A stretch of 64,000 bases of DNA. Source: an uncultured beta proteobacterium. Lineage in GTDB: Bacteria; Pseudomonadota; Gammaproteobacteria; Burkholderiales; Burkholderiaceae_D. Positions 17,428-33,762 of this stretch are shown here, piece after piece. The notes below the pieces were generated by a model. That model saw only the letters and a program-made list of their open reading frames with translations. It ran no database searches and had not been told where the DNA came from. The stretch lies in contig CAVRJS010000002.1 of the NCBI GenBank assembly GCA_963722005.1, forward strand, positions 37,190 through 101,189. Direction: 5' to 3'. How positions within the stretch are numbered: position 1 is the first letter of the stretch; the number at the start of each line of letters is the position of its first letter. The position numbers and the translations under genes were made by a program.

Positions 17428-18732
17428 TTACAGCTGGCCGCTTTCCTTGATATCCAGGTAGCGATTCACCAGCGACATCCCCAGCCTTTCCGGCGTAATG
17501 TCGATCAGTTGCCCGGCGCGAATGCCGAAGTGGCGTATGGCGTCGTCGCGCTGTTCCAGGTAATGCGCCGTGGCGCAATAGCGCAACGCTTCGTCGAACT
17601 GGCGCACCGGCGTCTCGATCACCGCATCGAGGCTGCGCTCGCGCAGGCTGGCGCACATCACCAGGTGCCTTGACGACAGCAGCTCGCACGCCGCGCGCAT
17701 GGCATGGTCGTCCTCGTCGCGCAGGTTGGTGATGATGACCACGAAGGCGCGCTTGCCGAGGCGGTTGAGCAGGCCGCTTGCGGCTTGCAGGTAATCTGGC
17801 GCGACCTCGCCCGCCTGCAAGTCGTATACGCCCGCCAGCAAGCGGTCCAGGCCGGTGCGGCCCTTGGCCGGACTCAGCCAGCGCGTCTGCGCGCCGAAAC
17901 TCAGCAGCCCCACCGCATCGCCCTGCTTCTGCGCCACAAACCCCAGCGTCAGCACGGCATTGAGGGCATGGTCGAAATGCGAAGAAACGCCATCCCTGGC
18001 CAGCATGCGCCGGCCGGTGTCAAGCAGGAACACCACCTGCTGGTCGCGCTCTTCGCGGTATTCGCGGGTGATCGGCCTTTGCAGGCGCGACGTCGCCTTC
18101 CAGTCGATCGCGCGCATGCTGTCGCCCTGGCGGTATTCGCGTAGCTGGCGGAAATCCGTGCCTTCGCCGCGCCGGCGCTTGCGTATCGCCCCCGCCGCCG
18201 GCGAACGCCGGTCAGTCGCGGTGAGCGCATGGCCGAGCAGCTTGGAATAGTCCGGAAACACCTTGACCTCGGTGATCTCGCCCAAACGCAGGTGGCGCCG
18301 CCACAGGCCCAGCGGCGAACGCACGCGCACGTGCGCGACGCCGAAGACGGCGTCGCCGCGCCGGTCCGGGCACAGGCGGTAGCCGACCGCGGCGAAACGT
18401 CCCGGCGCAATGCGCGTGGCATACGGCAAACCCTCCATGCCCCAGGCGCCAGGGTAATCGTCCAGCAGCTCGACTGCCAGCGCCCGCCCGCCTTCATTGT
18501 GCAGCGTGACCGTGGCGCCATTCCAGACATCCACGGGCCAGACGCCGGAGACTTGTCGCTCCACGCGCAAGGCCGGCGCTTTCCACGCCAGCAGGGCATC
18601 GGCAATGCCAATCAGCAGCAACGCCAGGCCGGCGCCCTGCCAGAACGGCGCCACCCCCGGCCACCAGCCGGCGGCAAACCCCAGCAGCGCCCACGCGGAC
18701 GCCGCCAGCAACAATCGGCGCGACGGGGTCAT
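17428..18732 (-). CDS. DUF58 domain protein (vWA-like), MoxR partner
   Basis: 434 aa. N-terminal TM segments. Typical DUF58 genes follow MoxR ATPases. Start overlaps the MoxR stop (ATGA). Confidence 0.8.
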
Positions 18733-19778
18733 GCGCGCGGCGCCGGGACTTGCTCGATCATCGCTGCCAGCAGGTCGTCGCTGCCCAGGCCGTCGAGCTC
18801 GCTCTCCGGCGACAGCGCAACCCGGTGCCGCAGCACAGGCAGCACCGCTTCCTTGACGTCAGCCGGCGTGACGTAGTCACGCCCTGCCATCAGCGCCACG
18901 GCGCGCGCCAGGCGCACCAGCGCAATCGAGCCGCGCGGCCCGGCGCCGACCGCCAGCCCGGGCAGGTCGCGCGTGGCGCGCACCATGCGCACGGCGTAAC
19001 CGGCTACGGCCTCATCCACGCGCACCTGCGCCACCACTTGCTGCAGTGTGACGATGGTGGCCGGCTTGACCAGGCTGCTGATCTGGTCGACATCGAGGCC
19101 GTCGCCGACGCGGTTGCGCGTGACCATTTGCAGCATCTCGGTCTCTTCGGCTTCGCTCGGGTAGTCGATGCGCACTTTTACCAGAAAGCGGTCGAGCTGC
19201 GCCTCCGGCAGCGGATAGGTGCCTTCGTTTTCCAGCGGGTTTTGCGTTGCCAGCACCATGAACGGCGCTGCCAGCGAATGCGATTCGCCTTCGATGGTGA
19301 CCTGCCGCTCCTGCATCACTTCCAGCAGTGCGGACTGGGTCTTGGCGGGGGCGCGGTTGATTTCATCGGCCAGCAGCAAGTTGGTGAACACCGGCCCCTT
19401 GCGCACATTGAAGGTCTGGTTGCGCATGTCGAACACCGAGTGGCCCATGACGTCGGCCGGCATCAGGTCCGGGGTGAACTGGATGCGGGAAAATTCCCCC
19501 GAGAAGGTGCGCGCCAAGGCCTTCACCAGCAGCGTCTTGCCGAGGCCGGGCACGCCTTCGATCAGCACGTGGCCGCCTGCCAGGCAGCAGGCGAGCACCT
19601 GGTCGATGACGGTTTGCTGGCCGACCACTGCCAGGCGGATCTGCTCGCGCATGCGCTGGACGATCTCAATGGCCTGCTGAAAATGGCCGGCAGTCGCTGC
19701 GGGCGGCGTGGCGGTCGGCATGGCAGCCGGAGCGGCGGACGGCGGAGTGGCGGCAGCAGAAGCGGGATTAACGCTCAT
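18729..19778 (-). CDS. MoxR family AAA+ ATPase
   Basis: 349 aa. Walker A GVPGLGKT, Walker B, and …[22 protein letters not shown]… typical of MoxR/RavA-family ATPases. Confidence 0.9.
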
Positions 19779-21027
19779 AGGTTTTCCTCAGTAGTCGAAG
19801 TGTATGGATCTGGCGGGTAAACTGTATCGGTGTCTTGCCGGGCGGGTCCCGCAAGGCGGCGATCACGCTGGCTTTGGGCAGCTTGCTGTCCTCTGCCAGG
19901 CTATCGATCTGCTGGTCCGGATGCTGGCGCAGCAAGTGCGGCGCGCGCTGACGCCAGGCCTTGCTGGCGGCGGCGCGGGCAGCGTTGAGCAGGATTTCGC
20001 GCCCGCCCGGCACACGCCACAGCCAGCGCCCGCTGGCGTCGATATGCTCGACCAGCGAGCGGCGCTCCAGCAGCGGTTCTGGCAGCGGCGTGCCGAAGCG
20101 GCGCATCGACATCCACAGGAACAGCGCCAGTACGCAGACCGCGCCGATCAGACCTTCCTTGAAATTGGTCCATAGCGCCTGGTGCCACTTGGGCATCTCC
20201 AGCCCCTGCACGATGATGAAGTGCTTGCCGGATGTGCCGGCAATGCCAAGCAGCAGTTCCGCATGGTCGCTGCCGACCAGTTGGTTGTTTTCGAAATATT
20301 GCTGCGCCAACAAAACGACGCGCCCGCGCCCTTCCTGGTAGATGCGCACCACTTCACCGTTGGCATCGGCATGTGTCGGCACGTGGCCTTCGCGAAACGT
20401 CCACAGCGCCGAATAACCGTGCTCGATCTGCAGCGGATAGACGCCGCCTGGCAGCGTGAATTCGACGACATCGCGTTTGATTGCCTGCCCCGGTTTGCGC
20501 GCAGAGTCCGCCGGATTTTGACGGCGGTTCAGCGAAACGCCATAGCGGCCGCCGAAGGGGTCACGCGTAGCCGATCTTTCACCGTCCTCGTCTTCGGTTG
20601 CCTGCTCATCGTCGTCTTCGTACTCGCCATCGTCGCCGGCATCTTCACCGTCGCTGTCGTCGTTCGTGCTGGCGCTGCCGCTGCGCCATTTCGGCTGCGC
20701 GATCAATGTATTGCCCTGCCTGACCCAGGCCAGAAGGCGTTGCTCCTGTTCCTTGCCGAGCAGGCCGCCGTTCTGGGCGATCAGGATCGTGCCCTGGGGC
20801 GGCAAGTCGAGCAGCGCTTCATGCAGCATGGGATGCGTGTCGATCTTGTAGCCGCGCGCAGTCAACAGCCGCTCGGCCGCCAGCAGGGGATTGTCGCTCC
20901 ATGCCTTGGGAACGTGGCGCTTTGCTTCGACGCGCTGCTCGAAGTTGGCAAACCACCACGCCGCGGTTGCCGCGCATACCAGCAGCGACAGGATGCCCAG
21001 CAGCCATTGTCTTTGTGTATGACTCAT
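19768..21027 (-). CDS. DUF4350-like membrane protein with acidic low-complexity insert
   Basis: 419 aa. N-terminal TM. D/E-rich tract ([28 protein letters not shown]). Its position between the DUF4129-like and MoxR genes matches the conserved cluster. Confidence 0.65.
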
Positions 21028-33082: not shown

Positions 33083-33141
33083 GGGTTTCCTTCTTGTCTG
33101 GTTGGGTGGTTCTGGGGATATGGAAAGATTTGCCGGGAAAC

Positions 33142-33762
33142 TCAGCCGTCGGCCGGCGCCGCCGCCACTTCGTACTGCTGGCGGGCGTCGTCGTAGTCGA
33201 GGATGACTGCGGTGGAATTCTTGCCAAGGGTATTGGGCGCCTTCGCCCACACGCGGATGTTGAGGCTGACGCCGCTGTCGCTGACTTCGGCGCGGCCGAA
33301 CTTTTCATCGACGCTGCCGGTCACGATGCGGCAATGCAGGCCGACCAGGCTGCGGTTGCTGCGCGCCTGGTGCTTGACGAACAGTCCGCGCAAGGGCCGG
33401 ATGGCGCGCGCCGACAAGGGAATGGCCAGGCCTGCCGCCAGCAGCAGCACGCCGGCGCCGGCCAGCAGCTGCAGCGGCAGCGTTGGCACCCACACCAGCA
33501 CGTACTGGTGCGCCAGCGCGGTAAACAGCCAGGTGAAAAAGACCAGCACCGTGAGCGCAATCGAGATCGGCACGCCCCCCAGGCCCAGGGCCACCAGGTA
33601 ACCCGCCAGGGAATGCAGGTCGTGATCGCCGACTTCGAATTCGAGGCTGTCGCCCAGGTCGACCAGGCCGACAATGGAAAACAGCCAGTAAACGAGCAGG
33701 ACGGCGAGCACGACCGTGGGCACGGCGCTTGGAAAGCTGCTGAGCAACGCCCAGGTCGACAT
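33142..33762 (-). CDS. YqiJ/DUF1449 (NfeD-like) membrane protein
   Basis: About 206 aa from MSTWALLSSFPSAV…. Multiple TM helices plus a C-terminal soluble OB-like region. The classic yqiJ-yqiK arrangement directly upstream of flotillin. Confidence 0.7.
   Translation of the reverse strand: MSTWALLSSFPSAVPTVVLAVLLVYWLFSIVGLVDLGDSLEFEVGDHDLHSLAGYLVALGLGGVPISIALTVLVFFTWLFTALAHQYVLVWVPTLPLQLLAGAGVLLLAAGLAIPLSARAIRPLRGLFVKHQARSNRSLVGLHCRIVTGSVDEKFGRAEVSDSGVSLNIRVWAKAPNTLGKNSTAVILDYDDARQQYEVAAAPADG

What the first reader, a model, noticed from the sequence alone, without database searches (positions are those of the whole stretch)
17428..33762. Eleven co-directional, tightly packed genes on the minus strand, almost all membrane-associated proteins
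From 33762 down to 17428 every gene is on the minus strand. Junctions are ATGA/TGATG overlaps or gaps of 60 nt or less, with no intervening terminator-like hairpins. The order is YqiJ-like, flotillin, Zn-ribbon, giant coiled-coil AAA ATPase, PLD/HKD, RDD, DUF95, DUF4129-like, DUF4350-like, MoxR and DUF58. This joins two recognisable modules into one apparent transcription unit of about 16.3 kb. One module is the flotillin/NfeD microdomain scaffold. The other is the MoxR chaperone-like cluster. The junction passes through the PLD gene. The PLD stop and the RDD start share a nucleotide, which implies translational coupling across the two modules.
Basis: seen in the sequence. Interest (0 to 1): 0.7.

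Follow-up and report, generated by a model that had tools for sequence, protein, structure and literature searches.

The report
Two known envelope operons fused
This gene array is real, but it is two separately known membrane-maintenance operons (a PspA/flotillin/giant-ATPase operon and a MoxR/VWA operon) joined end to end in only a few closely related bacteria, so it is a local rearrangement and not a new conserved system.

Summary
The eleven minus-strand genes exist as described, but the run holds 14 genes (35379 down to 17428). Upstream of YqiJ lie DUF2170, PspA and a 110-aa ORF.

Module A runs DUF2170-PspA-orf110-YqiJ-flotillin-ZnR-giant AAA+-PLD. It matches the PspA/flotillin operon of Ravi et al. 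2024 and probably P. aeruginosa bacABCDEF. PLD belongs to this module and is not a bridge.

Module B runs RDD-SpoIIM-DUF4129-like-DUF4350-MoxR-DUF58. It is a self-contained operon and probably the counterpart of P. aeruginosa arc2 (PA4318-23).

None of 80 diverse genomic loci carrying the giant ATPase has a module B gene within 10 kb. Five distinct close relatives carry B alone, behind its own roughly 470-570 nt upstream region.

A and B are adjacent in only three related Oxalobacteraceae: this window, L085 and L082. In L082 the order is reversed and an opposite-strand gene lies between them.

In the window, the terminator seen after PLD in L082 and B's native promoter region are both missing. 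PLD's stop overlaps RDD's start (TGATG, with an AAGGAG Shine-Dalgarno sequence). Read-through from A's conserved promoter is therefore likely but unproven.

Verdict: a lineage-restricted operon fusion of two known kinds, of modest interest.

Side finding: orf110 co-occurs almost perfectly with a GACATnnnATGTC palindrome at A's promoter.

The parts
35411..35451 (-). Promoter of module A. It has a sigma-70-like -35 TTGACA and -10 TAACGT, with two perfect palindromes GACATnnnATGTC at 35439-35451 and 35411-35423. These are candidate operators.
   Evidence: these are the only two matches in the 64-kb window. The same architecture sits upstream of DUF2170 in relatives whatever the flanking gene.
34951..35379 (-). 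DUF2170 / YjfI-like (CesT-like) protein, the BacA counterpart. The likely true start is M13 at 35379 (142 aa).
   Evidence: Pfam DUF2170, 5e-23. Weak NCBIfam BacA hit, 44 bits against a 300-bit cut-off. Relatives are 142 aa, and the ATG at 35415 lies inside the second palindrome.
34200..34940 (-). PspA/IM30 family protein (YjfJ-like), the BacB counterpart.
   Evidence: Pfam PspA_IM30, 1.7e-33. AAGGAGG ribosome-binding site, 10 nt after the DUF2170 stop.
33854..34186 (-). orf110, a conserved 110-aa protein with no Pfam family. It is a candidate tandem ribbon-helix-helix regulator of the operon.
   Evidence: Conserved at 73-80% identity in relatives. Its presence tracks the promoter palindrome: 20 of 21 loci with it against 1 of 65 without. 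Weak, scattered RHH hits.
33142..33789 (-). YqiJ/NfeD-like inner-membrane protein with three TM segments.
   Evidence: Three TM segments predicted. Weak similarity to E. coli YqiJ, E 0.012. Directly upstream of the flotillin gene in 65 of 70 loci.
30920..33082 (-). Flotillin (YqiK-like). It has an N-terminal TM segment, an SPFH-like region and a long coiled coil.
   Evidence: 29% identity over 450 aa to E. coli YqiK, E 2e-36. Weak FloT hit. Upstream of the giant ATPase in 70 of 70 loci.
30376..30905 (-). Zn-ribbon protein gene. The ORF as read ends at 30405. A 1-nt deletion near 30496 puts the conserved C-terminal tail in another frame, which ends near 30376.
   Evidence: Pfam Zn_ribbon_TFIIB, 1.2e-7. 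Frameshift shown by three-frame translation and by DNA alignment with L081, L082 and L085. Found only in Burkholderiales loci.
25020..30332 (-). Giant 1770-aa ATPase: an N-terminal beta-propeller (DUF3686), a long helical/coiled-coil middle (DUF7902), a C-terminal AAA+ module and a helical tail.
   Evidence: Pfam. More than 4000 homologues, annotated 'DNA repair ATPase'. AF2 N-terminal model with pLDDT 82 hits beta-propellers. AF2 AAA+ model with pLDDT 71 is nearest NorQ/MCM/RuvB.
24270..24992 (-). Single-HKD phospholipase-D-family protein, the last gene of module A.
   Evidence: PLDc_2, 2e-31. Best solved relative is mitochondrial cardiolipin hydrolase (MitoPLD/Zucchini), 2e-30, ahead of Nuc at 5e-9. 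Immediately after the giant ATPase in 16 of 66 loci.
23578..24270 (-). RDD-family membrane protein, the first gene of module B. Its ATG shares one base with the PLD stop.
   Evidence: Pfam RDD, 1.9e-18. Junction sequence GCAAGGAGCGCGTGATGAGT.
22631..23581 (-). SpoIIM/DUF95 polytopic membrane protein.
   Evidence: Pfam SpoIIM, 2e-31. The MFGFYIWN motif matches the peptide MFGFYIMN encoded by the deltaPA4320_F1 primer in PMC8926400.
21024..22631 (-). DUF4129-like polytopic membrane protein (535 aa).
   Evidence: No Pfam hit itself. Some homologues carry PF13559 or are named DUF4129. About five TM segments.
19768..21027 (-). DUF4350 protein with an N-terminal and a C-terminal TM segment.
   Evidence: Pfam DUF4350, 2.6e-11. 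TM prediction.
18729..19778 (-). MoxR-type AAA+ ATPase.
   Evidence: AAA_3, 1.7e-65, and AAA_lid_2.
17428..18732 (-). DUF58 protein with a VWA-like domain and N-terminal TM segments. It is the last gene of the array.
   Evidence: DUF58, 3.7e-26; VWA_2, 2e-5.
17390..17413 (.). GC-rich 10-bp hairpin between the convergent DUF58 and DUF805 genes. It marks the end of the array.
   Evidence: z -2.03.

Best explanation
The array is a tail-to-head fusion of two autonomous envelope-maintenance operons, and the fusion is restricted to one lineage.

Module A (35451-24270) is a PspA/flotillin operon of the bacABCDEF type. Its parts are:
- a CesT-like DUF2170 protein;
- a PspA (ESCRT-III-like) membrane remodeller;
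- a small candidate regulator (orf110);
- a YqiJ/NfeD-like partner and a flotillin scaffold;
- a Zn-ribbon protein;
- a giant beta-propeller/coiled-coil/AAA+ ATPase;
- a MitoPLD-like HKD enzyme.

Module B (24270-17428) is an arc2-type operon. Four membrane proteins (RDD, SpoIIM, DUF4129-like, DUF4350) precede a MoxR AAA+ ATPase and its DUF58/VWA partner.

Inferred history. In an ancestor of a small Oxalobacteraceae subclade the two came to lie next to each other. In this genome, A's terminator and B's own promoter region have been lost, so the PLD stop overlaps the RDD start.

Inferred consequence. B is now transcribed by read-through from A's sigma-70-type, palindrome-guarded promoter, and RDD translation is coupled to PLD. 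B therefore comes under A's regulation.

Inferred mechanism. The two machines probably still work separately. A stabilises or remodels damaged membrane: PspA and flotillin assemblies, serviced by the giant AAA+, with PLD changing anionic lipid. B uses a MoxR-VWA chaperone pair to remodel membrane-protein complexes.

Shown here: gene content, order, junctions, conservation patterns, and loss of the intergenic elements. Inferred: co-transcription, the regulation, and all biochemical roles.
For: Module A is a conserved unit:
- Flotillin lies upstream of the giant ATPase in 70 of 70 loci and YqiJ in 65 of 70.
- PspA is present in 29 and DUF2170 in 30 of 67 loci; PLD follows in 16 of 66.
- Exactly this operon, including the optional PLD, is described in PMC11237479.
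- P. aeruginosa bacABCDEF was shown by RT-PCR to be one six-gene operon (PMC10948618).

Module B is a conserved unit on its own:
- L086, L087, L208/209, L210/211, L213 and L214 all have RDD through DUF58 (where the contig allows), with overlapping junctions.
- Each has a 240-570 nt upstream intergenic region and, wherever the downstream side is visible, a convergent DUF805 gene.

The modules are independent:
- 0 of 80 loci have any B gene near A.
- None of about 120 MoxR-bearing metagenome stretches has an A gene.
- Syntenic pairs differ only by presence or absence of B + DUF805: the window against L081, and L085 against L212.

The fusion lost its regulatory spacer:
- The conserved motif upstream of stand-alone RDD genes is absent from the window and from L085.
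- L082 has a perfect terminator about 70 nt after PLD; the window has none.
- The window's PLD has a unique 9-aa tail that encodes the Shine-Dalgarno sequence for RDD.
- No sigma-70-like site lies near the junction.

A's promoter travels with A:
- The TTGACA / palindrome architecture recurs upstream of DUF2170 in different flanking contexts.

Link to arc2:
- Tn-seq in PMC8926400 hits the six genes PA4318-23.
- The paper's deletion primers encode MFGFYIMN (window SpoIIM has MFGFYIWN) upstream of PA4320, and TQNPIE (window MoxR has TQNPLE) upstream of PA4323.
Against: - There are no transcript data. An internal promoter inside PLD or the 3' end of the giant gene cannot be excluded by a consensus scan.
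- A-B adjacency occurs in two different flanking contexts: GGDEF...globin in the window, and MipA...VF530 in L085. A third arrangement exists in L082. This is more than a single accident and could reflect some selection for linkage.
- The equivalences to bacE/bacF and to PA4318-21 rest on synteny in other Pseudomonas species and on short primer-encoded peptides, not on full sequence comparison.
- The 80 loci are the best-scoring of at least 567, so the sample is not exhaustive.
- All biochemical roles are inference.
Confidence: 0.6

Rival explanations
1. The two modules form one integrated system. The MoxR/VWA machine and its membrane partners would work physically with the PspA/flotillin/giant-ATPase machine. 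The fusion would then reflect selection for stoichiometric co-expression.
For: - Adjacency appears in three related genomes, in three arrangements and two flanking contexts.
- The junction is tight and translationally coupled, and B has lost its own promoter.
- Both counterparts in P. aeruginosa are linked to envelope or antagonism phenotypes (PMC8926400, PMC10948618).
- An Arc3-like DUF2339-DUF3999 fusion gene lies about 21 kb away in the same window.
Against: - 0 of 80 diverse loci show the association.
- The closest relative has A without B, and five close relatives have B without A.
- In L082 an opposite-strand gene and a terminator separate the two modules.
- In P. aeruginosa the counterpart operons are hundreds of genes apart (PA3728-32 against PA4317-23).
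Confidence: 0.18
2. The modules are adjacent but transcribed separately. A cryptic promoter within PLD or the 3' end of the giant gene would drive module B, and transcription of A would largely stop before RDD without a canonical hairpin, for example by Rho.
For: - B is an autonomous operon elsewhere.
- Long operons often contain internal promoters.
- The consensus scan is crude and covers only sigma-70-type sites.
Against: - No promoter-like site lies within about 800 nt upstream of RDD.
- B's native upstream motif is missing.
- The 1-nt stop/start overlap with a strong Shine-Dalgarno sequence leaves no untranslated RNA for Rho loading.
Confidence: 0.17
3. The array is an anti-phage or nucleic-acid-targeting defence island. 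The 'DNA repair ATPase' and the HKD nuclease-like PLD would act on DNA.
For: - Database names for the giant protein are 'DNA repair ATPase'.
- The PLD domain weakly matches DrmC, MkoB, DpdK and NucT models.
Against: - PADLOC gives only domain-level PLD hits and nothing meaningful for the giant ATPase or any other gene.
- The PLD's best solved relative is cardiolipin hydrolase MitoPLD.
- The giant ATPase is invariably linked to flotillin and YqiJ, and often to PspA, across phyla.
- It is chromosomal and syntenic, with no mobile-element genes nearby.
Confidence: 0.03

Closest known systems
CesT/Tir(DUF2170)-PspA-flotillin-YqiJ-AAA+ operon class (Ravi et al. 2024, mSystems, PMC11237479), and P. 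aeruginosa bacABCDEF (PMC2587700, PMC10948618)
   Same: Same gene set and order: a DUF2170 + PspA dyad, a 3-TM YqiJ-like protein, a TM + SPFH/flotillin protein, an AAA+ ATPase with a beta-propeller and coiled coil, and an optional HKD/PLD gene at the end. In P. aeruginosa this is one transcript by RT-PCR.
   Different: - Here two extra genes are inserted (orf110 and the Zn-ribbon gene).
- The promoter is sigma-70-like with two palindromes, not the sigma-54 site proposed for bacA.
- The operon runs straight into a second operon.
- Equating bacE/bacF with the giant ATPase and PLD is inferred from synteny in other Pseudomonas species. The paper does not state it.
P. aeruginosa Arc2, antagonism resistance cluster 2, PA4317-23 (Ting et al. 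2022, eLife, PMC8926400)
   Same: - A multi-gene operon ending in a MoxR-like AAA+ ATPase followed by a VWA-domain protein.
- Six contiguous genes are hit in Tn-seq.
- Primer-encoded peptides match the window's SpoIIM (MFGFYI[M/W]N) and MoxR (TQNP[I/L]E) in the expected upstream genes.
   Different: - Arc2 stands alone in P. aeruginosa, is Gac/Rsm-regulated, and has seven annotated genes.
- Full-length sequence comparison could not be done here.
- Protection against the pore-forming T6SS toxin ColA is known only for P. aeruginosa.
E. coli yqiJK (flotillin YqiK plus YqiJ) and yjfIJ (DUF2170 plus PspA-like)
   Same: The flotillin is homologous to YqiK (29% identity, E 2e-36). The YqiJ-then-flotillin gene order and the DUF2170-then-PspA gene order are the same.
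   Different: In E. coli these are two separate loci, with no giant ATPase, PLD or MoxR module.
MoxR-VWA chaperone pairs (RavA-ViaA, NorQ-NorD, CbbQ-CbbO)
   Same: An AAA_3/MoxR ATPase is encoded next to a VWA-type partner.
   Different: Here the pair follows four membrane proteins (RDD, SpoIIM, DUF4129-like, DUF4350). The partner is a membrane-anchored DUF58 protein, and the client is unknown.
Mitochondrial cardiolipin hydrolase MitoPLD/Zucchini (PLD6)
   Same: It is the best solved-structure relative of the window's PLD (E 2e-30). Both have a single HKD domain.
   Different: The bacterial protein has a roughly 100-aa helical N-terminal extension and no predicted TM anchor. Whether its substrate is lipid or nucleic acid is untested.

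Membership tests
PspA/flotillin/AAA+ operon (Ravi et al. class; bacABCDEF-type) | DUF2170 (CesT/Tir-like) + PspA dyad at the 5' end | tested here: met
   Pfam DUF2170, 5e-23, and PspA_IM30, 1.7e-33. The two genes are 10 nt apart.
PspA/flotillin/AAA+ operon (Ravi et al. class; bacABCDEF-type) | Membrane-anchored band-7/flotillin protein | tested here: met
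   N-terminal TM segment. Homology to E. coli YqiK, E 2e-36. Pfam Band_7 itself does not hit.
PspA/flotillin/AAA+ operon (Ravi et al. class; bacABCDEF-type) | 3-TM YqiJ/YuaF-type protein next to the flotillin gene | tested here: inconclusive
   Three TM segments, the same size, and a conserved position in 65 of 70 loci. Only E 0.012 against E. coli YqiJ, and no Pfam hit.
PspA/flotillin/AAA+ operon (Ravi et al. class; bacABCDEF-type) | Large AAA+ ATPase with N-terminal beta-propeller and coiled coil | tested here: met
   DUF3686, 1e-191, plus DUF7902 and AAA. The AF2 model of residues 1-520 (pLDDT 82) matches beta-propellers. The AAA+ model matches NorQ/MCM/RuvB.
PspA/flotillin/AAA+ operon (Ravi et al. 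class; bacABCDEF-type) | Optional terminal HKD/PLD gene | tested here: met
   PLDc_2, 2e-31. Same position in 16 of 66 loci.
PspA/flotillin/AAA+ operon (Ravi et al. class; bacABCDEF-type) | Sigma-54 (-24/-12) promoter, as proposed for P. aeruginosa bacA | tested here: not met
   No GG-N10-GC element with the consensus flanks in 35416-35668 by inspection. Instead there is a TTGACA / 17 nt / TAACGT site with two palindromes. This is a species-level feature and does not define the operon class.
Arc2-type MoxR operon (PA4317-23) | MoxR AAA+ gene immediately followed by a VWA-domain gene at the 3' end of the operon | tested here: met
   AAA_3, 1.7e-65; DUF58 + VWA_2. 4-nt overlap.
Arc2-type MoxR operon (PA4317-23) | Upstream genes homologous to PA4318-PA4321 | tested here: inconclusive
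   Only short primer-encoded peptides could be compared (MFGFYIMN against MFGFYIWN; TQNPIE against TQNPLE), plus the six-gene Tn-seq block. An attempt to fetch a P. aeruginosa contig failed.
Arc2-type MoxR operon (PA4317-23) | Gac/Rsm control and protection against the pore-forming toxin ColA | not testable with these tools
   These are experimental properties reported only for P. aeruginosa (PMC8926400).
Single operon spanning both modules | Same strand, no terminator, overlapping or short junctions | tested here: met
Single operon spanning both modules | Gene order across the A/B junction conserved in distant taxa | tested here: not met
   0 of 80 loci. Seen only in the window and L085.
Single operon spanning both modules | One transcript covering the junction | not testable with these tools
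   Needs RNA-seq or RT-PCR.
Known anti-phage defence systems (PADLOC) | Signature proteins of a catalogued system | tested here: not met
   Only domain-level PLD hits, 1.9e-8 or weaker, to MkoB/DrmC/DpdK. Nothing for the other genes.

The most novel reading that the evidence does not exclude
The fusion may not be neutral. In this Oxalobacteraceae subclade an Arc2-like MoxR machine would have been recruited under the palindrome/orf110-controlled promoter of the PspA/flotillin operon. Together with the Arc3-like DUF2339-DUF3999 gene 21 kb away, this would form a co-regulated membrane-damage or antagonism-resistance neighbourhood. It would be natural genetic evidence that Bac, Arc2 and Arc3 act in one response.
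Probability: 0.15. Interest if true: 0.55.

Novelty: new variant of a known kind. Interest (0 to 1): 0.3.

Why it matters
Both halves are poorly understood but widespread envelope systems. The giant flotillin-linked AAA+ ATPase has more than 4000 homologues, no solved structure and no literature under its Pfam name. The RDD...MoxR-DUF58 cluster has a single functional report.

A natural fusion gives a mild guilt-by-association hint that both serve one membrane-damage response. It also offers a tractable regulatory handle: the conserved palindromes and the small orf110 protein.

The negative result is useful as well. It stops the two modules from being treated as one conserved 16-kb system.

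Tried and rejected
- A literature search for 'DUF3686' returned nothing. A search for PA4319-22 also returned nothing.
- The exact-sequence look-up of the window's own giant protein was not on record, so the source genome's wider context could not be fetched.
- I tried to retrieve a P. aeruginosa arc2 contig by scanning metagenomes for a published primer sequence. It returned about 120 generic MoxR genes and none carried the other primers. The arc2 equivalence therefore rests on primer-encoded peptides only.
- A sequence search of the PDB found nothing for the giant ATPase or the flotillin.
- Pfam, even at E up to 5, gives nothing for the YqiJ-like protein, the flotillin, orf110 or the DUF4129-like protein.
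- A sigma-54 promoter like the one proposed for bacA was not found by inspection.
- Rfam and tRNA scans of the window were empty.
- The defence-system reading was rejected on PADLOC results.
- A profile search of orf110 against the PDB gave no convincing hit. The ribbon-helix-helix idea rests on the repeat pattern, weak scattered Pfam hits and co-occurrence with the operator.

Full report
**1. Observation**

Domain evidence:
- The 1770-aa protein carries DUF3686 (1e-191), DUF7902 and an AAA module.
- PLDc_2 scores 2e-31, RDD 2e-18, SpoIIM/DUF95 2e-31 and DUF4350 3e-11.
- MoxR scores AAA_3 2e-65. DUF58 scores 4e-26 with a weak VWA_2 hit. The Zn-ribbon scores 1e-7.

Labels without a Pfam hit:
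- The flotillin has none. It is 29% identical over 450 aa to E. coli YqiK (E 2e-36).
- The YqiJ-like protein matches E. coli YqiJ only weakly (E 0.012). It has three TM segments.
- The DUF4129-like protein has no hit. Some of its homologues carry PF13559.

Junctions (with two starts corrected by one codon), in nt:

| Junction | Gap or overlap |
|---|---|
| YqiJ to flotillin | 59 |
| flotillin to ZnR | 14 |
| ZnR to giant ATPase | 72 |
| giant ATPase to PLD | 27 |
| PLD/RDD | 1-nt overlap (TGATG) |
| RDD/SpoIIM | -4 |
| SpoIIM/DUF4129-like | -1 |
| DUF4129-like/DUF4350 | -4 |
| DUF4350/MoxR | -11 |
| MoxR/DUF58 | -4 |

Terminators:
- Terminator-like sites are no more frequent than in shuffles (15 against 17.1). 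All minus-strand ones lie inside genes.
- The intergenic gaps fold no better than shuffles.
- A strong hairpin (17390-17413) follows DUF58, where a convergent DUF805 gene ends.

Corrections to the observation:
- The run continues upstream of 33762 with orf110 (33854-34186), PspA (34200-34940) and DUF2170 (34951-35379). The gaps are 64, 13 and 10 nt. The run ends at a divergent GGDEF gene. It is therefore a 14-gene run.

**2. What the two halves are**

I took 80 genomic loci around homologues of the giant ATPase. They come from Beta-, Gamma- and Zetaproteobacteria, Myxococcota, Actinobacteria, Acidobacteriota and a Clostridia MAG. I searched them with all 14 window proteins.

| Feature next to the giant ATPase | Loci |
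|---|---|
| Flotillin directly upstream | 70 of 70 informative |
| YqiJ-like upstream | 65 of 70 |
| PspA further upstream | 29 of 67 |
| DUF2170 further upstream | 30 of 67 |
| orf110 | 11 of 67 |
| Zn-ribbon gene | 10 of 70 (Burkholderiales only) |
| PLD immediately downstream | 16 of 66 |

- This is the operon class described by Ravi et al. 2024. [quoted passage not shown]
- In P. aeruginosa the six-gene bacABCDEF operon was shown by RT-PCR to be one transcript (PMC10948618). Its bacA is a DUF2170 protein and its bacB a PspA homologue.
- Other Pseudomonas loci in my set have exactly DUF2170-PspA-YqiJ-flotillin-giant-PLD. The giant ATPase and PLD are therefore probably bacE and bacF. This is an inference.
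- PLD thus belongs to module A. The junction does not 'pass through' it.

**3. Module B stands alone elsewhere**

- Homologues of the DUF4129-like protein lie in RDD-SpoIIM-DUF4129-like-DUF4350-MoxR-DUF58 operons with the same overlapping junctions. Examples are Paucimonas lemoignei (L086), Massilia atriviolacea (L087) and four metagenomic relatives (L208/209, L210/211, L213, L214).
- Each has a 240-570 nt upstream intergenic region. In five of the six the upstream gene is a divergent GGDEF gene.
- A convergent DUF805 gene follows in all 7 module-B loci where the downstream side is visible (the window, L082, L085, L086, L087, L208/209, L210).
- The cluster is probably the counterpart of P. aeruginosa arc2 (PA4317-23). 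[quoted passage not shown] It is Gac/Rsm-induced and protects against the pore-forming T6SS toxin ColA (PMC8926400).
- Support for the arc2 link:
  - Tn-seq hits six contiguous genes, PA4318-23.
  - The deltaPA4320_F1 primer encodes MFGFYIMN; the window's SpoIIM protein has MFGFYIWN.
  - The deltaPA4323_F1 primer encodes TQNPIE; the window's MoxR has TQNPLE.
- I could not obtain full P. aeruginosa sequences. This equivalence is only partly tested.

**4. Are the modules linked?**

- None of the six module B proteins, including the highly conserved MoxR, hits any of the 80 loci at E 1e-4 or better. Of these loci, 61 have at least 7 kb downstream of the giant gene and 67 have at least 5.5 kb upstream.
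- None of about 120 MoxR-bearing metagenome stretches has a module A gene.

Among the closest relatives (giant ATPase 78-82% identical):

| Locus | Arrangement |
|---|---|
| L081 (82%) | GGDEF, A + PLD, then unrelated genes, malic enzyme, globin |
| L083/84 | A only |
| L212 | MipA, A, VF530, rhodanese |
| L085 | MipA, A (no PLD), 69 nt, B, DUF805, VF530, rhodanese |
| L082 (Janthinobacterium sp. 17J80-10) | B, opposite-strand DUF805, then A + PLD |

- Adjacency therefore occurs in 3 of 6 near relatives and nowhere else.
- Syntenic pairs differ by presence or absence of the B + DUF805 block (the window against L081; L085 against L212).
- In the GGDEF context, A is the variable block (the window against L086, L208 and L213).
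- Both modules behave as independent cassettes. The caveat is that adjacency in two flanking contexts plus a third arrangement is a little more than a one-off.

**5. Is it nevertheless one transcription unit here?**

Sequence evidence says probably yes.
- Stand-alone B loci share a conserved upstream element (gTTGCATTTATGGACATaaaaaa...CTCGTAGACTGT). It is absent from the window at up to 3 mismatches and from L085's 69-nt gap.
- L082 has a perfect intrinsic terminator (GCGGACC-ATG-CGGTCCGC followed by a T-run) about 70 nt after PLD. The window has none.
- PLD C-termini are conserved up to ...QFAxLWxA and then diverge. The window's unique tail, FYEPSARSA, encodes the AAGGAG Shine-Dalgarno sequence 6 nt before the RDD ATG.
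- No sigma-70-like site lies near the junction.
- The only conserved promoter is upstream of DUF2170: TTGACA, 17 nt, TAACGT, with two perfect palindromes GACATnnnATGTC (35439-35451 and 35411-35423). These are the only two matches in the 64-kb window.

**6. Features bearing on mechanism**

- PLD. Its best solved relative is mitochondrial cardiolipin hydrolase MitoPLD/Zucchini (2e-30), well ahead of the nuclease Nuc (5e-9). The HKD motif is intact (HHKFALFD...GSYNWT).
- Giant ATPase, N-terminus. The AF2 model of the first 520 aa has pLDDT 82 and pTM 0.79. It is mostly beta-strand and matches WD40-type and other beta-propellers.
- Giant ATPase, C-terminus. The AF2 model of the C-terminal 541 aa has pLDDT 71. 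It is an AAA+ fold with a beta-hairpin insert, nearest NorQ (MoxR family), MCM and RuvB.
- Nucleotide motifs. Walker A is PPGYGKTT and Walker B is LYLDD.
- Defence systems. PADLOC finds no defence-system signature.
- My working model is inferred, not shown.
  - Module A assembles PspA and flotillin scaffolds at damaged or cardiolipin-rich membrane. The giant AAA+ acts as their remodelling or disassembly motor, and PLD adjusts anionic lipid.
  - Module B uses MoxR-VWA to remodel a membrane-protein complex formed by RDD, SpoIIM, the DUF4129-like protein and DUF4350.
  - The fusion places B under A's regulation.

**7. Side findings**

- orf110 and the palindrome.
  - In about 2 Mb of loci, the palindrome occurs almost only in module A promoter regions.
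  - It occurs almost only where an orf110 homologue is present: 20 of 21 loci with orf110 against 1 of 65 without. Fisher p is 2e-17, uncorrected for phylogeny.
  - This includes Marinobacter and Cellvibrionaceae loci, where DUF2170-PspA-orf110 is divergent from YqiJ-flotillin and the palindromes sit in the shared intergenic region.
  - orf110 has two strand-helix-helix-like repeats and scattered weak RHH Pfam hits. It is a candidate tandem ribbon-helix-helix autoregulator.
- ZnR frameshift. The Zn-ribbon gene has a 1-nt deletion near 30496 relative to three orthologues. The deletion replaces the conserved C-terminal tail. This is either a sequencing error or a real lesion.
- Arc3-like gene. 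A 1783-aa DUF2339 + DUF3999 fusion protein at 56854-62205 looks like the Arc3A-Arc3B fusion mentioned in PMC8926400.

**8. Verdict**

The interpretation of a two-module unit holds, probably, only as a local operon fusion. The two modules are known kinds that are independent almost everywhere. This is a new variant of a known kind, and of modest interest.

Noticed in passing
window 35411-35451 and 33854-34186; L001-L004, L007, L008, L011, L012, L015, L016, L066, L069, L073, L076, L081-L085, L212: The palindrome GACATnnnATGTC (1-4 copies) occurs only in the promoter region of the PspA/flotillin operon. It occurs almost only in loci that also encode the 110-aa ORF: 20 of 21 with it against 1 of 65 without. 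orf110 has two strand-helix-helix-like repeats, so it may be a tandem RHH autoregulator with this operator.
   Followed up: partly
window 30376-30530 (deletion near 30496): The Zn-ribbon gene has a 1-nt deletion relative to its orthologues in L081, L082 and L085. The conserved 40-aa C-terminal tail (...AEMIAFLAARTD) is now in another frame, and the ORF ends early at 30405 with an unrelated tail. This is either a sequencing error or a genuine frameshift.
   Followed up: yes
window 56854-62205 (+): A 1783-aa ORF in a 70% GC stretch with strong AT skew combines DUF2339 (1e-155) and DUF3999 (3e-110). It looks like the single-polypeptide Arc3A-Arc3B fusion mentioned in PMC8926400. One window therefore holds bac-like, arc2-like and arc3-like genes, which are dispersed in P. 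aeruginosa.
   Followed up: no
window 16722-17378 (+); L082, L085, L086, L087, L208, L210: A DUF805 membrane-protein gene lies convergently right after DUF58 in every MoxR-module locus where the downstream side is visible (7 of 7, with three copies in Massilia atriviolacea). It moves together with the module. It may be a functional partner encoded on the other strand.
   Followed up: partly
window 34951-35415: The first ATG of the DUF2170 ORF (35415) lies inside the second promoter palindrome. Relatives are 142 aa and start at the equivalent of M13 (35379), which has a GAAGGGGGA ribosome-binding site. The gene is therefore probably 34951-35379.
   Followed up: yes
window 52533-54029 (+): A chemoreceptor-like ORF has the MCPsignal domain (residues 176-330) before the sCache_2 domain (371-496). 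This is the reverse of the usual order. The overlapping minus-strand ORF has no Pfam hit.
   Followed up: no
L214 6849-7322; L213 7751-7975: Some stand-alone MoxR-module loci have an extra small ORF (157 aa or 74 aa) just upstream of RDD, overlapping it in L214. It may correspond to the seventh arc2 gene (PA4317). It is absent from the window.
   Followed up: no
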